From the IMG/VR virus record IMGVR_UViG_3300037247_001314, positions 32,001 to 96,000 of that record: DNA of 64,000 bases; one strand, written 5' to 3'. The translations under genes and the position numbers were made by a program. Each line of letters begins with the position of its first letter. Positions within the stretch are counted from its first letter, which is position 1. The notes under the pieces were generated by a model. That model was not told the origin of the DNA and did no database searches. It worked only from the letters and a program-made list of their open reading frames with translations. This DNA is from a virus. Shown piece by piece: positions 6,567-20,982 of the stretch.

Positions 6567-8501
6567 CTACCATTCAAAATCCTTATTGCCGAGTCCTGGC
6601 AAATGGCGCCAGGCGAGTTCATCTGGATGCAGCTGGTCGTCTGGCACGAGGGAGGCCTCCTGCGCTGACCGTGTTGCTCGCGGGCCCACAAGATTCTCGA
6701 CGGTGAGGTGCTGAGCGATAAAGTCTTTGATGGCGTCCTTAGGCGCGTCCTCGATTTCGACGTCGCCGCCCCACTCCTGCAGCAAGTCGCCCACAGGGTC
6801 GTCCCCCCACTGTGCTGCGTCCGGCTCGACCATCTGTTGGTCCAGGAGTTGGTCAAGGCTGAGGTCGTCGTCGCCCTCCTCACCAAAGGAGAAGCCAAAG
6901 GCCCCTGCCCTGACCGCGCAGTTAGCGATCCAGAAAGCCATCACCGTGTCGTCGTGAGAGCCGACGCCTTGGAGCTTGCCCTCCAGCCACGTGAAGTGCC
7001 GCATTTCCTTTATCCAGATGTCGCTCTTCTCGACGCTCTCTTGGTCGCCGCGGGGAATGCGCACCTTCGCGTTTTCCAGCAACACGCGCAGCTGGGGCAC
7101 GCCGCCTTCGAGGGTGTTTTTGTTCATCGTGTGCGTGTTGCCTGAAGGTTGCGCCGAGTTTGACTTCTTGGTTCCAGACGTCACGAACTTGTAGATGGGC
7201 AGGTCAGTCTCGCGGATGAGGTCATCAGCAAAGATGCGTTGCATTTGATTCGATTCCAGATAGATGAGGTCAGCGTCGTACTTTCGCCCGAGTGCGTTGA
7301 TGAGTCCCAGTTGTTGTTTGTATTCCAGACCGTGGTGGCGTTGGATGTCGATGATCCATCTGTTGCGTGCTTGGTCCAGACCGAGGACGAAGCCGACGGT
7401 GTAGTCCGCCCCCGTCGACGTCGAGATGGCGAAGTCGAAACCAATGTAGAAGCTCGTGATGCCGAGCTCCTCGTAGTACGCACGCGTCTGCCCCATCTTC
7501 ACGCCCAGCTGCTCGGTAGGCGACCCTCGGAAGAGTCGGCCGGGGAACAAGCTCATCTCGTCGCTGATGGGCTCGCACATGAACTCGCGCGTGAAGCGCA
7601 CGCTCTTGATTTCGAGTTCGCGCTCTTCGAGAGACTCGACGACAATGCCTTGTTCCAAGTAGCGAAGCCGTTCGGCCTTCGTCGCGCAGAATCGCTCGGG
7701 CCACAGCGCCTCACCTGCCAGATTGCGTGCTGCGTATTTGCGGTAGCAGTAGCGTTTGTTCTCAGCGAGGTCAGCGTAGAGGTCGGCCGCGTGGAACGGT
7801 GTGCCCACGACGATGACCTGGCCGCCAGGGTTCACCATGTTTGTGATGGCCGTGTAGAAGTAGTCTATGTGCTTGTTGCGAACGAGTTCGCTATACGCGT
7901 CCTCGTCGTTGAGCCCGTCGTCGACGACGATCCAGTCAGGGTGGGCTCCGCGGATCTTGGTGCCGAAACCGCGCGCGTAGATTTTATGGCCGTTGGCCAA
8001 AGTGATCTGAGTCTTGCTCCAGTTGCGCGCTTTGTTCTTCGGGTTGAGGAACGCAAGCTTGGGGTTGCTCTCAATCTCCTCTTTGATGTCTTCGAGGATT
8101 CGAACAGCCTGCTCTTGCGTCGCCGAGAAGATGTAACCTCGACCACCAGGCATGAACGCCGCTTTCCAAATAGGAAAAGCGAAGTCGAAGAAAAATGTTT
8201 TTCCGTGATTTCTCGGGGCCAACACGCAGATGCGGTCTTCTTTGGCGACGAGTTCGTCCCACTCCATGTGGTGTTCGGCGACGATGAAATGGCTGTTGTA
8301 GGGAGCCTGCACTGGCCCAGACAGACACTCGCTCGCGAAGAAAGCGCATGACTCCCGCATCATCTCGATGGTGAGCGCGTCCCAGTCGTCGTCGCCACCT
8401 TCGACCGCAGCGTGGGCACGACGTTCTACAGCGTCGTCGTCCCACTCGGGAACGCCGCTACTAAAGAGCTCACCAAATCCGTTAGCCGGCATTGCCATCA
8501 T
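6567..8501 (-). CDS. terL: Terminase large subunit
   Basis: Walker A APRNHGKT, Walker B WIVVDD, coupling motif VGTP, nuclease YIGFDFA and HDDTVMA; acidic C-terminal tail. Confidence 0.95.
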   Translation of the reverse strand: MMAMPANGFGELFSSGVPEWDDDAVERRAHAAVEGGDDDWDALTIEMMRESCAFFASECLSGPVQAPYNSHFIVAEHHMEWDELVAKEDRICVLAPRNHGKTFFFDFAFPIWKAAFMPGGRGYIFSATQEQAVRILEDIKEEIESNPKLAFLNPKNKARNWSKTQITLANGHKIYARGFGTKIRGAHPDWIVVDDGLNDEDAYSELVRNKHIDYFYTAITNMVNPGGQVIVVGTPFHAADLYADLAENKRYCYRKYAARNLAGEALWPERFCATKAERLRYLEQGIVVESLEERELEIKSVRFTREFMCEPISDEMSLFPGRLFRGSPTEQLGVKMGQTRAYYEELGITSFYIGFDFAISTSTGADYTVGFVLGLDQARNRWIIDIQRHHGLEYKQQLGLINALGRKYDADLIYLESNQMQRIFADDLIRETDLPIYKFVTSGTKKSNSAQPSGNTHTMNKNTLEGGVPQLRVLLENAKVRIPRGDQESVEKSDIWIKEMRHFTWLEGKLQGVGSHDDTVMAFWIANCAVRAGAFGFSFGEEGDDDLSLDQLLDQQMVEPDAAQWGDDPVGDLLQEWGGDVEIEDAPKDAIKDFIAQHLTVENLVGPRATRSAQEASLVPDDQLHPDELAWRHLPGLGNKDFEW

Positions 8502-8541: not shown

Positions 8542-8820
8542 TCAATGCACAGGGTTGAGCAGTCCCACTTTTTGCATTGACGAATAGATACGATCGGCGA
8601 GCGTTAGCGCCTGCCCCTGGATGAGGAGCAAGTTGTCTTCGTCGAGGCCACCTTGCTGCGCGGCAAGACGCCAAAAAGCAGCGTTAGCTTCAGCCGCGAG
8701 CAGTTGCGCCTGGACATTGGGCTGCACGCCTTGTTCGTTCTCGTATTCAGAGGTCAGCTTGACGAGTTCGAGGCCGAGTCCTGCACCTACGCCTTGTTGA
8801 ATGAAGCCACTGCGGGGCAA
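8542..8820 (-). CDS. Hypothetical protein
   Basis: 92-aa helical ORF directly upstream of terL. Confidence 0.55.
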   Translation of the reverse strand: MPRSGFIQQGVGAGLGLELVKLTSEYENEQGVQPNVQAQLLAAEANAAFWRLAAQQGGLDEDNLLLIQGQALTLADRIYSSMQKVGLLNPVH

Positions 8821-8823
8821 TGC

Positions 8824-9036
8824 CTAATCGACCAAAGCAAACAGATGCTGGGACAAATGTGGAGCTGTAACGATCGCCAGAGTTTCCCAACCACCTTCAC
8901 CGTCCGCGATAAGAGGTGGATCGATGACGTCAGCCGCTATCACGTTTCCCCGTCTTGGTGGGCCCTTTCGCGGTCGATGCCACGCGTAACGTTTCTTGGC
9001 TTTGCCGCGAATGATGGTGCCCGCTTCAATCTGCAT
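8824..9036 (-). CDS. Hypothetical protein
   Basis: Start moved to ATG 9036 (MQIEAGT...) because the longer ORF runs through a terminator and structured RNA. Confidence 0.55.
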   Translation of the reverse strand: MQIEAGTIIRGKAKKRYAWHRPRKGPPRRGNVIAADVIDPPLIADGEGGWETLAIVTAPHLSQHLFALVD

Positions 9037-9056
9037 GCTGCAGCATACTCCCCAAC

Positions 9057-9458
9057 GAAAAAAGGCCGCAACCGTTGCCGGTGCGACCCCTTCCTCATAA
9101 CCGGGTTTATCGTGCAAGCACGAGGCACCCCGGTGGCCCCCAGTTACGGGAGTGCGCGGTTTCGGCTTTTAAGGGCCGTTCCATACACCCTCGGGGCATG
9201 CCCCCGAGCGCTCTGCGATGTATCCGCTCCCGTAACTTGCGCCACGCTCACGTCACACCATCGGCCGTGTTTCAAGCAGAGCTCATCGTTACCGACTCAC
9301 CCCTCAACACGACTGACCCTTCGCTGGTGGATAACGACGTCACCGCCAAAACCCGCGTCTGCTGTCTCCAGGTAGAAGAAACACCTCCAAGGAGGATGCC
9401 CCGCTTTGCCCGCTTGTTCCCCCGAAAGGAAACGCGCTTCGCTGCGCCAACGGGACGT
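9057..9458 (-). ncRNA. Unclassified ~400-nt multi-domain structured RNA
   Basis: No credible ORF; many nested helices including 11-bp AGUUACGGGAG/CUCCCGUAACU, UUCG and GAGA tetraloops; terminator at the 3' end; TTGACG upstream at 9482-9487. Confidence 0.75.
9058..9090 (-). terminator. Intrinsic terminator closing the ncRNA
   Basis: Minus strand GGUCGCACCG-GCAA-CGGUUGCGGCC followed by U6. Confidence 0.8.
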
Positions 9459-9513
9459 GTTGTCTCAAACGTCTGGGCGACCGTCAAGAACTTTTTTCAC
9501 ATCCGTCGCTTTT

Positions 9514-9954
9514 TTAGATGTGGATGTCAGCCGCTACGGCCACATCGATATCCGCGCCGGCAGTCGGCGCCGTATCAATGTCGAAGCTCAGCACATCGCC
9601 GGGCGCGAGTACCTGGTTGGCCGGGTCCAGATCGGTGGTGCTCACCGCAGTACCGTCCGAGTCGGTGTTGGCCACCGTAAGATCGGTGACTCCGCCCGCG
9701 GCAAGCGCCGTGACGCCGTTGATGTTCACGTCTGGAACCGTGCTGCCACCCGAACCAGTCGTGCCCACCTTCATGCGCACTCGACGAAGGGTCATGTGGC
9801 GCTCGGCGATGAAGCTGAGCTTTTTGCCCGTTGTAACGGTCCCAGCAACGAAGCCGCTGAGCGGCACCTGTCGCGCAAGTTGCGCGAGGATGCCGGGGGA
9901 TTGATGGGCGAGGTCAGCAGGGTTTAAGTCGAGAGGGTTGCGGTAGGTTTCCAT
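9514..9954 (-). CDS. Probable structural (decoration-like) protein
   Basis: 146 aa, AAGGAG RBS, beta-sandwich-like T/G/V/D composition. Confidence 0.65.
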   Translation of the reverse strand: METYRNPLDLNPADLAHQSPGILAQLARQVPLSGFVAGTVTTGKKLSFIAERHMTLRRVRMKVGTTGSGGSTVPDVNINGVTALAAGGVTDLTVANTDSDGTAVSTTDLDPANQVLAPGDVLSFDIDTAPTAGADIDVAVAADIHI

Positions 9955-9999
9955 GGTCGGCTCCTTATGGGGGCGTCCACTGTACTTGCCGCAAACTCG

Positions 10000-10464
10000 T
10001 TACGCTACAGGCGGTGGCTCCTGGCTTTCGCCCGCATGCGTGAACACGACGTGCCAAGGTTTCTTAGCTTTACCGAACTGGCCGAATGCGGCCGGATTGA
10101 GCACGTCCATCTCGACGTGACCCCGACGTGGTCCTCGCTTGTCGTAGTTGTCGACGTCTGGACCAAAGCCAAACGTCGCACACTGCTGTGTTTCGCCGTA
10201 GTCGATAACCTTGTCCAAACGCCAGTCCGTTTCCTCGTCGGCCGGTGTCATGTCGATGTAATAATAATCGCCGACGGTAAACTGCTGCTCGTCGTCAACG
10301 TGAGCCTTGAAATGCATCTCCGCCTTTCCAGACGGCGTTGCCTCCCAGAACTGTTTATTCTCGGGCGCGCCCTCGTCGGCGCTGACGGGAAGGAACTCGT
10401 AGCTCCGATAATGGTCCCAAGTGTTGGTGCTGCTCATGCAGCGAAACTTTGCGCGAATAGACAT
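10000..10464 (-). CDS. Conserved phage protein (ENKxFWxxTPSG type), apparently an internal duplication
   Basis: MSIRAKFRC...ENKQFWEATPSGKAEM...GDYYYIDMT, followed by a second degenerate copy; GGAG RBS before ATG 10464. Confidence 0.7.
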   Translation of the reverse strand: MSIRAKFRCMSSTNTWDHYRSYEFLPVSADEGAPENKQFWEATPSGKAEMHFKAHVDDEQQFTVGDYYYIDMTPADEETDWRLDKVIDYGETQQCATFGFGPDVDNYDKRGPRRGHVEMDVLNPAAFGQFGKAKKPWHVVFTHAGESQEPPPVA

Positions 10465-10540
10465 TGGCGTCTCCGGTGTTGGTTCAGTTGTGAGACGCCG
10501 CGCGGTTGGCCCAGGTCGTGGCACCCTGGTTGAGTTCAGT

Positions 10541-10768
10541 CTACCAAGTGTCCTCGGGCAATGCACCTTCAGCTGGCGAACCGTCTGCGTACGTATGGAA
10601 CACGCGGAGACCCGTGACGGGGTCGCGAGTAGTGCGCGCTTCACGCTCCTCTAAATAGCGCCGCTCGGATTCTAGGCGCAGGTGCTTTTCGGCACCGTGC
10701 ATGAAACTGACGATCCCGATAACCCCACCAAACAACACCGAGCCCACAATAATAGCAACAGTAAACAT
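10541..10768 (-). CDS. Small single-pass membrane protein
   Basis: N-terminal hydrophobic helix; AAGGAGG RBS. Confidence 0.7.
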   Translation of the reverse strand: MFTVAIIVGSVLFGGVIGIVSFMHGAEKHLRLESERRYLEEREARTTRDPVTGLRVFHTYADGSPAEGALPEDTW

Positions 10769-10941
10769 CAGCGCACCTCCTTAGTTGTGTTCGTTCTCTC
10801 TTCCAAATAGTAACGCTCTTCGCGCTCCCATTTGCGTTGCAGGATGCGGTCGACAAGCCGCGGATTTCTCTGCACCCCTAGCGTGTACCCCGCGAAGAAC
10901 CCGAACATTGCGCCGACAGTCACGAATAACCAGTCAAGCAT
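10768..10941 (-). CDS. Small single-pass membrane protein
   Basis: MLDWLFVTVGAMFGFFAGYTLG...; start at ATG 10941 overlaps the upstream stop region. Confidence 0.65.
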   Translation of the reverse strand: MLDWLFVTVGAMFGFFAGYTLGVQRNPRLVDRILQRKWEREERYYLEERTNTTKEVR

Positions 10942-11551
10942 TGGCGTCCAGACGCGCAGCTTTCCATCGAGACTGATTCCAACAGCGCTTGCAAGTGACC
11001 TCGTCCCAATCGTCGGTAAGCCGGCATCCGTACTGCGCCGCACACGACGCGAGCTTCTTGTTATACGGATCGCGCATATGAATCTTCCACCTCGGAGGGT
11101 TCGCGCTATCGACGAAAGACTTTTCTTCCAGACGGGCGGGCTGCGTATGACAAAGCGCCTTAAGTCGCCCCAACTCTTCCAAGAGTTCGGGGTCACTACC
11201 CGCTGGCCACCACATCGTGCCGTGCTCATCAGTCCAGCCGCCCTCAACATTGAGCGACTCGCCGGCAGCCTTCTCTTCTTTCGGGGCGGGTTGGTCTTCG
11301 ATGACTCCCTGCTTCCGCAGCCGAGCGTTTGTTTCCTCGATACGCGTATCGGTCGCCGTAATGGCAGCGCCCCACTTCTCCACCGCCGCAGAGGTAACAC
11401 CGTACTGCTCAGCGACGTCGTCAACTCGGGCACCGTTCCGCACAGCGCGGGCAGCCATCGACCTATCCCTGTTTGTGAGCATTGCCATCTGAAAGTCCAG
11501 ACGCGCACCAGGCACGAGCAGCGTGCTCATGCAGTTCCGGTGAGCTTGCAT
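10934..11551 (-). CDS. HTH-containing protein (start uncertain)
   Basis: RVDDVAEQYGVTSAAVEKW helix-turn-helix; C-terminal Cys cluster. Confidence 0.6.
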   Translation of the reverse strand: MQAHRNCMSTLLVPGARLDFQMAMLTNRDRSMAARAVRNGARVDDVAEQYGVTSAAVEKWGAAITATDTRIEETNARLRKQGVIEDQPAPKEEKAAGESLNVEGGWTDEHGTMWWPAGSDPELLEELGRLKALCHTQPARLEEKSFVDSANPPRWKIHMRDPYNKKLASCAAQYGCRLTDDWDEVTCKRCWNQSRWKAARLDANA

Positions 11552-19218: not shown

Positions 19219-19250
19219 AAAAAGAAACGGCGAGACACATGGCCCCGCCG
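19219..19250 (-). terminator. Intrinsic terminator
   Basis: CGGCGGGGC/GUCUCGCCG stem followed by UUUCUUUUU. Confidence 0.7.
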
Positions 19251-19375
19251 CTCCAATCCGCTGTTCTTATGGCCCTTGGTGAAAGTCCCTCCCCAAAGCG
19301 GGGTAACCGCCCGCGGCCTCGCTACTCCCCCTCGACGGTGGGCGACCTTTCGGCCTTTCCCACCCACAGTGATTT

Positions 19376-20606: not shown

Positions 20607-20982
20607 GGCTTGCCCCCTTCTCTGCGGTTAGATGTCCAGACGAGTATATCGGTTCGGTCAACATCGTGCGGGCAACGCGAGACATGTCTCCCATTTCAAA
20701 CGCCGCAACGCGCACGCTGTTAGACACCGGCGCACCTTCCAGACAGTTTTCGATTCGTTTCGCTTGGTCGCAAAGTGCATCGAGCACGACGCCAAGACGC
20801 TTTAGTCGCACCGCTGGGTCTTCGGGGAAATGCTGCGGGCCGTCCTCGAGCTTGGTCTCGTAGCCCATGCACGTGCCGCAACCTGGCTCAAAACAATACA
20901 GAGTATGGTGGACGATACGGTAGAGTTCTTTCTCCCGCTTCGACAGCTGCGTTGGTGTCCGGCCCTGCTTCTTCTTTGCCAT
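20500..20982 (-). CDS. Hypothetical protein
   Basis: MAKKKQG..., HTLYC...CGTC; 3' end overlaps the next gene by 107 nt. Confidence 0.6.
   Translation of the reverse strand: MAKKKQGRTPTQLSKREKELYRIVHHTLYCFEPGCGTCMGYETKLEDGPQHFPEDPAVRLKRLGVVLDALCDQAKRIENCLEGAPVSNSVRVAAFEMGDMSRVARTMLTEPIYSSGHLTAEKGASHDSNRKAKDRPRKRAVTLHFSAGRGQQQQSGQESR

What the first reader, a model, noticed from the sequence alone, without database searches (positions are those of the whole stretch)
9057..9458. Unclassified ~400-nt structured RNA upstream of the terminase operon
The minus strand folds by eye into: a 5' three-way junction (CCCGUUG/CAAGCGGG enclosing GCGC-AGCGAA-GCGC and a UUCG-capped stem); GGGGCAUCCUC/GAGGUGUUUC; CUG-GAGA-CAG; AGCAGA/UCUGCU enclosing GUCGUUAUC/GGUAACGAU with a second AGCGAA loop; GUGGC/GCCAC plus an 11-bp AGUUACGGGAG/CUCCCGUAACU helix closing a multi-way junction; CCGGG/CCCGG with UCGUGC/GCACGA; then an intrinsic terminator. 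G-U pairs favour the minus strand. It is the longest non-coding stretch in the window. I see no RNase P, tmRNA or group I/II intron hallmarks. Precedents are the large phage RNAs GOLLD and ROOL and the phi29 packaging RNA, so a structural, packaging or decoy role is conceivable.
Basis: partly seen in the sequence, partly recalled or inferred. Interest (0 to 1): 0.85.

Follow-up and report, generated by a model that had tools for sequence, protein, structure and literature searches.

The report
Unclassified structured phage RNA before terminase
An uncultured 107-kb marine-sediment phage carries a roughly 395-base, strongly folded, non-coding RNA unit (promoter-like box, RNA, terminator) directly in front of its DNA-packaging genes; it matches no known RNA family, but only one other phage has it and its function is untested.

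Summary
The observation largely holds. Window 9057-9458 (minus strand) is non-coding, folds better than shuffles only on the minus strand, and ends in an intrinsic terminator. It matches no Rfam 15 family.

One homologue exists, in a 110-kb IMG/VR phage whose TerL is 83-86% identical. It keeps the promoter-like box, three sequence blocks and the terminator. Helices between the blocks are rebuilt with compensatory changes: 7 double changes in a 31-pair core, against 0-1 in slid controls.

The terminator ends 12-20 nt before the next start codon, with no promoter between. A second promoter-leader-terminator cassette precedes the head protease and capsid genes in both phages. I therefore favour a gated late-operon leader, like the lambda PR'-6S-tR' cassette but with an unusually large conserved fold (0.45). 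The main rival is a stand-alone, moron-like trans-acting RNA (0.3).

Limits: two sequences, no RNA data, uncultured host.

The parts
9482..9487 (-). -35-like hexamer TTGACG (TTGACA in L002)
   Evidence: It is conserved while the upstream flank and spacer differ, including a 1-nt indel. The same TCTTGACGG context occurs at a consensus-like promoter, TTGACG-N17-TATCGT, at window ~19200.
9458..9470 (-). Invariant 13-mer GTTTGAGACAACA, which would hold TGn plus the weak -10 candidate GACAAC 17/18 nt after the -35
   Evidence: It is 13/13 identical in L002 and unique in the window. The consensus promoter scan does not call it, so the promoter assignment is an inference.
9399..9455 (-). 5' domain. 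P1 is UCCCGUU (9449-9455) paired with AGCGGGG (9399-9405). It encloses hairpin GCGC-AGCGAA-GCGC (9434-9447) and the UUCG-type hairpin (9416-9433, window only)
   Evidence: P1 is kept in L002 as UCUCGUU/GACGGGA, 7 bp with one-sided changes only. The second hairpin is deleted in L002. The same G-run can also pair with the 3' block CCCGGUU, so this part is unresolved.
9382..9398 (-). Hairpin CAUCCUC-CUUG-GAGGUG
   Evidence: The L002 equivalent is CCCCUC-UUA-GAGGGG at the homologous place.
9323..9371 (-). Variable segment with two hairpins: CUG-GAGA-CAG, and GCGGUG...CACcAGC
   Evidence: L002 has two different hairpins in the same order, CCCCG-ACC-CGGGG and GGCCG..CCUCU-CAAAAU-AGAGG..CGGUU. The architecture is kept but the sequence is not.
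9261..9320 (-). Conserved block A and the P5 domain. P5 is UCAGUCGUGUU/AACACGGCCGA. P5a is GGGGU/GCUCU. A tandem G-A internal loop follows, then P5b GUCG-GUAA-CGAU (GNRA loop)
   Evidence: All 18 modelled pairs form in both RNAs, with 4 double compensatory and 2 one-sided changes. The domain is predicted independently in each single-sequence MFE.
9217..9259 (-). P6: GGUGUG (9254-9259) paired with UACAUC (9217-9222), with a variable interior
   Evidence: L002 has GGCUUG/UAAGCC, with 2 double and 1 one-sided compensatory changes. The interior holds the 5' arm of the window-specific 11-bp helix (9227-9237).
9190..9217 (-). Conserved block B: junction CGCAGAGCG plus hairpin CUCGGGG-GCAUG-CCCCGAG
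   Evidence: The junction is invariant. The hairpin is kept with one double change.
9163..9178 (-). Hairpin CGGC-CCUUAAAA-GCCG
   Evidence: L002 has UGGGG-CUUGUA-CCCCA at the same place.
9142..9160 (-). ACCGCGC plus CUCCCGUAACU, a segment that can pair with the P6 interior (candidate pseudoknot)
   Evidence: The window has a perfect 11-bp repeat. L002 instead has GCGGUGU in the P6 interior and ACACCGC after the hairpin (read). The topology is the same but the sequence differs, so this is inference only.
9093..9108 (-). Conserved block C: AAACCCGGUUAUGAGG
Evidence: 15/16 identical in L002. Which pairing forms is unresolved.
9057..9088 (-). Intrinsic terminator with U6 tract
   Evidence: dG is -17.8. 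The stem sequence is identical in L002 and the loop differs. It weakly resembles the terminators of ctRNA models only.
8824..9053 (-). RBS GGGGAG (9048-9053) and a 70-aa ORF (ATG 9036), present in the window only
   Evidence: The start codon lies about 20 nt after the U-tract. The ORF has no homologue in L002.
8542..8820 (-). Conserved 92-aa ORF, the first gene after the RNA in L002
   Evidence: It is 50.5% identical to L002:2345-2619, E 9e-14. In L002 its ATG lies 12 nt after the terminator.
6567..8501 (-). Large terminase subunit
   Evidence: Pfam Terminase_6N and Terminase_6C.

Best explanation
Window 9057 to about 9452 (minus strand) is a discrete promoter-to-terminator unit. It produces a roughly 395-nt, multi-domain, non-coding RNA of a family not yet described, with two known members. 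The unit is the 5' leader of the packaging operon: an optional 70-aa ORF, a conserved 92-aa ORF, TerL, two large genes, then portal.

Transcripts that start at the TTGAC/GACAAC promoter, or that arrive from the upstream operon, meet a strong intrinsic terminator 12-20 nt before the first start codon. The packaging genes are therefore made only when that terminator is read through.

The conserved fold is most likely the cis-acting part of this gate. It could be a binding platform for a phage or host antitermination factor. It could also be an RNA that itself modifies RNA polymerase, as HK022 put does. The terminated product would accumulate as a stable by-product, like lambda 6S RNA.

Shown here: non-coding status, strand-specific folding, conservation with compensatory changes, the terminator, its position against the next gene, and a second cassette of the same design before the head genes.

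Inferred: promoter activity, transcription, regulated read-through, and any role of the fold in it.
For: - Non-coding.
- Strand-specific fold: z = -3.14 on the minus strand against -0.33 on the plus strand, and -4.51 in the homologue.
- Homologue L002:1919-2332, nhmmer E 2e-19, with block-wise conservation. Meanwhile the neighbouring small genes are unalignable at DNA level and TerL DNA is 77% identical.
- Core of 31 pairs: 100% paired in both RNAs, with 7 double and 3 one-sided compensatory changes. Slid controls give 0-1 double changes.
- A structure predicted from one sequence alone and tested on the other keeps 64-69% of pairs (slid controls 40-55%). It shows 15 double compensatory pairs (slid controls 1-5), in both directions.
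- Alignment-level fold z = -4.47.
- The -35 and the 13-mer are conserved while the spacer varies.
- The terminator is conserved and is one of about 6 on the gene strand.
- The next start codon lies 12-20 nt after the U-tract, with no room for a promoter.
- A second cassette lies directly before the head maturation protease and major head protein. It consists of TTGACT-N17-TACATC, a ~115-nt leader with an invariant 40-mer, a strong terminator, then RBS and ATG. It is conserved in the sister phage.
- An ordinary terminator-then-promoter order is used elsewhere, at window ~19200.
Against: - Only two sequences exist, so covariation cannot be tested statistically. In an RNAalifold consensus the number of compensatory pairs (19) is not above column shuffles (mean 16, maximum 24).
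- The -10 candidate GACAAC is weak, and the consensus scan calls no promoter.
- No Q-type antiterminator domain was found (PF03589, PF06530). This is a weak negative in so divergent a phage.
- No conserved anti-terminator pairing was found.
- The two leaders share no clear motif.
- Relatives with TerL 45-63% identical mostly have neither this RNA nor any terminator within 3 kb upstream of terL. The cassette is therefore dispensable for the wider family and looks like an inserted accessory unit.
- A leader that only has to carry a terminator does not need about 395 nt of conserved fold.
Confidence: 0.45

Rival explanations
1. It is a stand-alone, trans-acting phage RNA gene with a moron-like layout: own promoter, RNA, own terminator, inserted between two operons. 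The folded RNA would act on host or phage components, for example as a scaffold, a decoy against a host defence, or a protein sponge. Its position before terL would be incidental, and read-through of its terminator merely leaky.
For: - It has the promoter-RNA-terminator layout.
- It has a complex multi-domain fold with a GNRA loop, a tandem G-A loop and a possible pseudoknot. That is more than any known terminator-gating leader needs.
- It is absent from relatives at TerL 63% identity or less, which lack a terminator there. This is the typical pattern of an accessory insertion.
- The upstream neighbours differ between the two phages, and an extra ORF is inserted downstream in one of them. The RNA unit therefore behaves as an autonomous module.
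Against: - No partner protein is evident. There is no reverse transcriptase, no tRNAs or tmRNA nearby, and the neighbours have no informative families.
- No conserved complementary target was found in the phage genome above chance.
- There are no conserved self-complementary loops for oligomerisation.
- The downstream genes have no promoter of their own, so the unit cannot be neutral for them.
- A second, much shorter cassette of the same design sits before the head genes. That fits regulation better than two unrelated trans RNAs.
Confidence: 0.3
2. It is a riboswitch-like or tRNA/metabolite-sensing attenuator. The large fold would be a ligand-sensing aptamer, and the terminator its expression platform, timing packaging-gene expression to a cellular signal.
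For: - The architecture is a conserved fold followed directly by a terminator and a gene.
- One G-run (9399-9405) is complementary both to the 5' strand UCCCGUU and to the 3' block CCCGGUU next to the terminator, in both phages. That could be a switch.
Against: - It matches no riboswitch or T-box model, even at E up to 10.
- No conserved anti-terminator pairs with the terminator's 5' strand at homologous positions.
- About 395 nt is far larger than known aptamers.
- The alternative pairings show no covariation.
Confidence: 0.08
3. It is not a separate unit. It would be the long structured 3' UTR of the upstream operon ending at that operon's terminator, or a DNA-level element (pac/cos site or origin), or a decaying remnant with chance structure.
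For: - The promoter is only inferred.
- The terminator would also end the operon that starts at window ~19200.
- Antisense alignment folding is also better than shuffles, z = -3.88.
Against: - The TTGAC box and the 13-mer are conserved although the upstream genes differ completely between the phages.
- Single-sequence folding is strongly strand-asymmetric.
- There are no direct repeats or iterons.
- The sister genome has direct terminal repeats, and the element lies about 71.5 kb from its end, so it is not the genome terminus.
- Sequence blocks are more conserved than the adjacent coding DNA, and compensatory changes argue against decay.
Confidence: 0.12

Closest known systems
Lambda late control region: PR' promoter, 194-nt 6S leader RNA, tR' terminator, Q antiterminator (also phages 21, 82, P22). 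From established knowledge.
   Same: The order is promoter, then leader RNA, then intrinsic terminator, then late (packaging/head) genes, with no other promoter. A short terminated RNA is the default product, and late genes need read-through.
   Different: - The leader here is about twice as long and has a conserved, compensated multi-helix fold.
- No Q-family gene was detected.
- There are two cassettes with unrelated leaders.
- The phage is a roughly 107-kb genome with direct terminal repeats, with no cultured relative above 30% TerL identity.
- Pause and Q-binding elements cannot be tested.
HK022 putL/putR RNAs, cis-acting RNA-only processive antitermination. From established knowledge.
   Same: A structured RNA is transcribed just downstream of a promoter and could let the transcribing polymerase pass downstream terminators.
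   Different: - put RNAs are about 70 nt and form two stem-loops.
- There is no sequence or model match.
- The best conserved part here (P5, P6, block B) lies 130-260 nt from the presumed start, not at the 5' end.
GOLLD, ROOL and other large ornate RNAs of phages and prophages (Rfam; cryo-EM in PMC12286853)
   Same: It is a large, intricately folded phage-borne RNA of unknown function, with its own terminator.
   Different: - There is no CM match, even at E up to 10.
- It is 395 nt, against roughly 580-800 nt.
- There are no neighbouring tRNAs.
- Only two members are known.
- No evidence of oligomerisation motifs was found.
phi29 packaging RNA (pRNA, Rfam RF00044)
   Different: - There is no CM match.
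- It is about 395 nt, against 120-174 nt.
- pRNA belongs to small protein-primed phi29-like phages.
- No conserved intermolecular loop-loop complementarity is present. The hairpin B loop is palindromic in the window only.
Bacterial RNase P RNA
   Same: The size is similar. A hairpin is followed by AAAGC-GGGG. A 3' block, AAACCCGGUUAU, resembles CR-V and can form a long-range P4-like helix. This resemblance is recalled from memory.
   Different: - The RNase P covariance models give no hit, even at E up to 10.
- The sister RNA lacks the AAAG of CR-I.
- The bulge is on the opposite strand.
- No S-domain motifs are present.

Membership tests
Any Rfam 15 family (including GOLLD, ROOL, HEARO, OLE, raiA, pRNA, RNase P, tmRNA, group I/II introns, T-box, riboswitches) | Covariance-model score at or above the family's gathering threshold | tested here: not met
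   There were 0 hits in the whole window at gathering threshold. At E up to 10 on both members, only terminator look-alikes appear (ctRNA, the CsrC 3' end) plus chance lncRNA/miRNA hits. None is shared between the two members.
Lambda-type Q-dependent late cassette | Intrinsic terminator between a promoter and the late genes, with no further promoter before them | tested here: met
   The terminator lies at 9057-9088. The start codon is about 20 nt downstream in the window and 12 nt downstream in L002. A second cassette precedes the head protease.
Lambda-type Q-dependent late cassette | Active sigma-70 promoter at the start of the leader | tested here: inconclusive
   The -35 TTGAC is conserved. 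The -10 candidate GACAAC with an upstream TG is weak and is not called by the scan. The cassette before the head genes has a good TTGACT-N17-TA(C/A)ATC.
Lambda-type Q-dependent late cassette | Q-family antiterminator gene in the phage | tested here: not met
   PF03589 and PF06530 are absent from both complete genomes. This is a weak negative, because the phage is very distant from cultured ones.
Lambda-type Q-dependent late cassette | Q-binding element and sigma-dependent promoter-proximal pause | not testable with these tools
   This needs biochemistry. The invariant 13-mer at 9458-9470 is a candidate site only.
phi29-type pRNA | RNA of about 120-174 nt with complementary left and right loops for ring formation, in a phi29-like phage | tested here: not met
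   RF00044 gives no hit. The length is about 395 nt. No loop complementarity is conserved between the two members.
RNase P RNA | CR-I (GGAAAGUCC) and CR-V forming P4, detectable by the RNase P covariance models | tested here: not met
   There is no RNase P hit at E up to 10. The CR-I-like AAAG is absent in L002.
Transcription-terminating riboswitch or T-box | Conserved alternative anti-terminator helix competing with the terminator | tested here: inconclusive
   Only chance-level complementarities to the terminator arms were found, none at homologous positions with covariation. One pattern hit in a Chloroflexota MAG was a T-box leader unrelated to this RNA.
Phage moron (autonomous promoter-gene-terminator insertion) | Own promoter and terminator, inserted between genes, absent from relatives | tested here: met
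   The layout is shown. The RNA is absent from 60 terL-anchored loci and two partial relatives. Most relatives have no terminator upstream of terL. The cargo here is an RNA, not a protein, and promoter activity is inferred.
Conserved structured RNA (generic criterion) | Statistically supported covariation across many homologues (R-scape type) | tested here: inconclusive
   Only two sequences are available. The cross-prediction test is clearly positive and the core has 7 compensatory pairs. However, the RNAalifold compensatory count is not above shuffles.

The most novel reading that the evidence does not exclude
A new class of large (about 400 nt), pseudoknotted phage RNA whose fold is itself functional. 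It would either be an RNA-based processive antiterminator or sensor that decides when the terminase operon is expressed, or a trans-acting ornate RNA (anti-defence or assembly role) carried as an RNA moron. It would be unrelated to GOLLD, ROOL, pRNA or put.
Probability: 0.3. Interest if true: 0.8.

Novelty: new variant of a known kind. Interest (0 to 1): 0.5.

Why it matters
Late-gene control is understood for lambdoid, T4-like and T7-like phages. It is essentially unknown for the many uncultured phage lineages. This phage places a conserved, elaborately folded RNA of about 395 nt plus a terminator in front of its packaging genes, and a second, shorter cassette in front of its head genes. That suggests a read-through switch in which RNA structure plays a part.

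If the fold proves functional, it would add either a new large RNA family to the short list known from phages, or a new RNA-dependent antitermination device. If it is merely a long leader, the finding is an ordinary regulatory region in an exotic phage.

The case is testable in vitro, with template DNA and RNA polymerase, even though the host is unknown.

Tried and rejected
**Searches for more homologues that found nothing**
- blastn against GenBank phages found nothing.
- Exact or degenerate motif scans of IMG/VR found only the sister contig plus chance hits. L064, L065, L077 and L078 give no CM match, and L076 lies inside a helicase-like ORF. One search used a mistyped pattern with one base too many.
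- The genome contigs pattern scan returned an unrelated Anaerolineales repeat, a T-box leader and chance hits.
- nhmmer, a motif-cluster search and CM R1 were run over 60 terL-anchored loci from IMG/VR and JGI metagenomes, with no result.
- CM R1 found nothing in the two other IMG/VR relatives. Metagenome records are not held, so the rest of those genomes was not searched.
- Other long gaps upstream of terL in relatives share no similarity with this RNA or with each other.

TerL relatives at 62-67% identity seen in ENA/Logan (P0003-P0010) therefore could not be fetched.

**Expression**
- No RNA holder is listed among sequencing runs. The only holder is the probable source DNA run, a marine sediment metagenome.

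**Partner and target searches**
- Reverse transcriptase is absent.
- No tRNA or tmRNA is present.
- Neighbouring ORFs have no informative Pfam or PHROG family.
- No target complementarity above chance was found.

**Other checks**
- The promoter motif is not repeated in the genome.
- The L1 and L2 leaders share only a weak 17-nt resemblance, judged to be chance.
- The simple terminator scanner misses this terminator because of its bulge, so I used my own scan.
- The RNase P resemblance was recalled from memory and rejected on the CM result and on the sister sequence.

Full report
**Setting.** The window is bases 32001-96000 of a 106.8-kb IMG/VR virus record judged 99% complete. The only sequencing run that holds the stretch is a marine sediment metagenome, probably its source. 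Genes run almost entirely on the minus strand. Downstream of the finding lie a 70-aa ORF (8824-9036), a 92-aa ORF (8542-8820), and the large terminase (6567-8501; Pfam Terminase_6N/6C). Two large genes and the portal (936-2852) follow. No cultured phage has a TerL more than 30% identical. The phage carries no tRNA or tmRNA.

- The minus strand folds to -183.9 kcal/mol, z = -3.14 against dinucleotide shuffles. The plus strand gives z = -0.33. Folding is therefore strand-specific, as expected for RNA with G-U pairs.
- The stretch from the stop of the upstream 146-aa ORF (9514) to the next start codon (9036) has no credible gene. The long plus-strand ORF 8653-9375 has atypical codon-position GC and no counterpart in the sister phage.
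- Translated similarity between the two phages is the same in all six frames. This shows nucleotide-level conservation, not coding conservation.
- The 3' end is a good intrinsic terminator (9057-9088, dG -17.8, U6). It is one of about six on the gene strand of the genome.
- No Rfam 15 family matches, at gathering threshold in the window or at E up to 10 on either member. Only terminator look-alikes appear.

**Homologues.** TerL-anchored searches gave 6 IMG/VR loci and 54 metagenome loci. Only one carries the element: L002:1919-2332, in a 110-kb phage with direct terminal repeats whose TerL is 83-86% identical (nhmmer E 2e-19). Conservation is patchy in the way expected of a structured RNA. The invariant parts are:
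- a TTGAC box and a 13-mer, GTTTGAGACAACA;
- block A, AGGGUCAGUC..GAGGGGUGAG.CGG.AACG..GAGC.CUGC;
- block B, GGAUA...CGCAGAGCGC.CGGGGGCA.GCCCCG;
- block C, AAACCCGGU.AUGAGG;
- the terminator stem.

The segments between these blocks are unalignable but again form hairpins. At DNA level TerL is 77% identical. The adjacent small genes are not detectable by blastn at all, so the blocks are under direct nucleotide selection. The sister RNA folds with z = -4.51.

**Structure.** In the best aligned core (window 9186-9321) I modelled four helices:
- P5, 9 pairs;
- P5a/P5b, 9 pairs, with a tandem G-A loop and a GNRA tetraloop (GUAA in the window, GCAA in L002);
- P6, 6 pairs;
- hairpin B, 7 pairs.

All 62 cells pair. 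Seven pairs change on both sides and three on one side. Sliding the partner by 1-3 columns gives 0-1 double changes and 37-54% pairing.

That structure used both sequences, so I also ran an unbiased test. I took the MFE of one sequence alone and checked it on the other through the MAFFT alignment.
- Window to L002: 69% of pairs kept, against 40-55% when slid. There were 15 double compensatory pairs, against 1-4.
- L002 to window: 64% kept, against 40-51%. There were 15 double compensatory pairs, against 1-5.

The consensus folding energy is better than column shuffles: z = -4.47 sense and -3.88 antisense. The raw count of compensatory pairs in an RNAalifold consensus is not above shuffles, however. 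With two sequences the case is good but not statistical.

- AGCAGA/UCUGCU and GUCGUUAUC/GGUAACGAU have no equivalent in L002. Those bases belong to P5a/P5b.
- The UUCG-type hairpin is deleted in L002.
- The perfect 11-bp helix loses its 3' arm in L002 and clashes with P6 unless it is a pseudoknot. L002 has a different 7-bp complementarity, GCGGUGU/ACACCGC, between the same two regions. A pseudoknot of conserved topology is therefore possible, but this is only inferred.
- The G-run at 9399-9405 can pair with the 5' strand UCCCGUU or with the 3' block CCCGGUU. All three options exist in both RNAs, without covariation. The closing architecture is unresolved.

**Context and mechanism.**
- In L002 the terminator is followed after 12 nt by the ATG of the conserved 92-aa gene. 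In the window an extra 70-aa ORF with its own RBS starts about 20 nt after the U-tract. There is no room for a promoter. The packaging genes must therefore be transcribed through this terminator.
- The upstream neighbours are unrelated in the two phages. The TTGAC box and the 13-mer are nevertheless conserved across a variable spacer. This argues for an own promoter, although the -10 candidate (TGn-GACAAC) is weak and the consensus scan does not call it.
- I then found a second unit of the same design outside the window, at G000 ~20912-20760. It consists of TTGACT-N17-TACATC, a ~115-nt leader with a 40-nt invariant stretch, a very strong terminator, then RBS and ATG. The genes that follow are the head maturation protease, a 341-aa gene and the major head protein. 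It is conserved in the sister phage, with the -35 and -10 kept and the spacer varied, and has no Rfam match.
- Elsewhere, at window ~19200, the phage uses the ordinary order: terminator, then promoter.
- Two promoter-leader-terminator cassettes in front of the two morphogenetic gene blocks is the logic of the lambda PR'-6S-tR' region. I therefore favour a gated late-operon leader, with the fold as the cis element of read-through.

**Arguments against this reading.**
- No Q-family domain is present.
- No conserved anti-terminator was found.
- The two leaders share no motif.
- Relatives at TerL 63% identity or less have neither the RNA nor, mostly, any terminator upstream of terL. The cassette thus looks like an inserted accessory module, which fits a moron-like trans-acting RNA gene equally well.
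- No reverse transcriptase or other obvious RNA partner is encoded.

**DNA-level readings are unlikely.** Folding is strand-asymmetric, there are no iterons, and the element lies about 71.5 kb from the terminal repeats of the sister genome.

**Comparison with known systems.**
- It works most like a lambdoid late cassette, or conceivably like HK022 put. By the tests I could run it is a member of neither.
- It is not GOLLD, ROOL, pRNA, RNase P, tmRNA, an intron, a T-box or a known riboswitch.
- A large IMG/VR survey of candidate structured RNAs required at least three regions and reported motifs of 29-151 nt (PMC10690425). An RNA of this size with two members would not have been listed there.
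- Earlier unchecked notes of this scan describe promoter-leader-terminator cassettes before late operons in unrelated phages. I reached the reading before seeing them. They are not independent evidence.

**Verdict.** This is a real, conserved, strand-specific, non-coding structured element of an undescribed family: about 80% that it is a transcribed structured RNA. It has two members. The most likely role is a cis-acting gate on the packaging operon (0.45), against a trans-acting RNA (0.3). Interest is moderate. It is unusual in size and fold for such a position, but the evidence base is narrow and there are no expression data.

Noticed in passing
G000:C1 ~20760-20912 (outside the window; L079:330-660, minus strand) and G001:C1:49578-49979: This is a second promoter-leader-terminator cassette. 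It has TTGACT-N17-TACATC, a ~115-nt leader with a 40-nt stretch invariant between the two phages, a strong terminator (dG -32.6), then RBS and ATG. The genes that follow are the head maturation protease, a 341-aa gene and the major head protein. It has no Rfam match.
   Followed up: partly
window ~19223-19375 (minus strand): A GC-rich stretch of about 170 nt without an evident gene ends in a terminator (dG -20). A consensus-like promoter, TTGACG-N17-TATCGT, follows it. blastn does not detect it in the sister phage.
   Followed up: partly
whole genome G000 (window included): TCCAGAC and its complement GTCTGGA occur 103 and 101 times in 106.8 kb, against about 6.6 expected per strand. One copy sits in the terminator stem of the second cassette. 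Copies or near-copies lie in the promoter spacers of the cassettes, in opposite orientation in the two phages at the head-gene cassette.
   Followed up: partly
L002:2952-4151 (G001): The sister phage's large terminase gene carries an insertion of about 1.2 kb encoding an intein with a homing-endonuclease domain (PF14528, PF14890). The window's terL lacks it. The insertion point corresponds to window ~8200.
   Followed up: partly
window 8824-9036 and 9514-11508: The genes flanking the RNA are mosaic. The 70-aa ORF downstream, and the 146-aa and 214-aa ORFs upstream, have no counterpart in the sister phage's locus. That locus has about 1.3 kb where the window has about 2.75 kb.
   Followed up: partly
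L066, L069, L071, L075 (Anaerolineales MAG DATLZK01): A repeated element containing GAGGGGTGAAGGGGTGAGGG(A/G)GAGCGCTGC, followed by a conserved ~40-nt tail, occurs on at least four contigs of one MAG. It is unrelated to the phage RNA.
   Followed up: no
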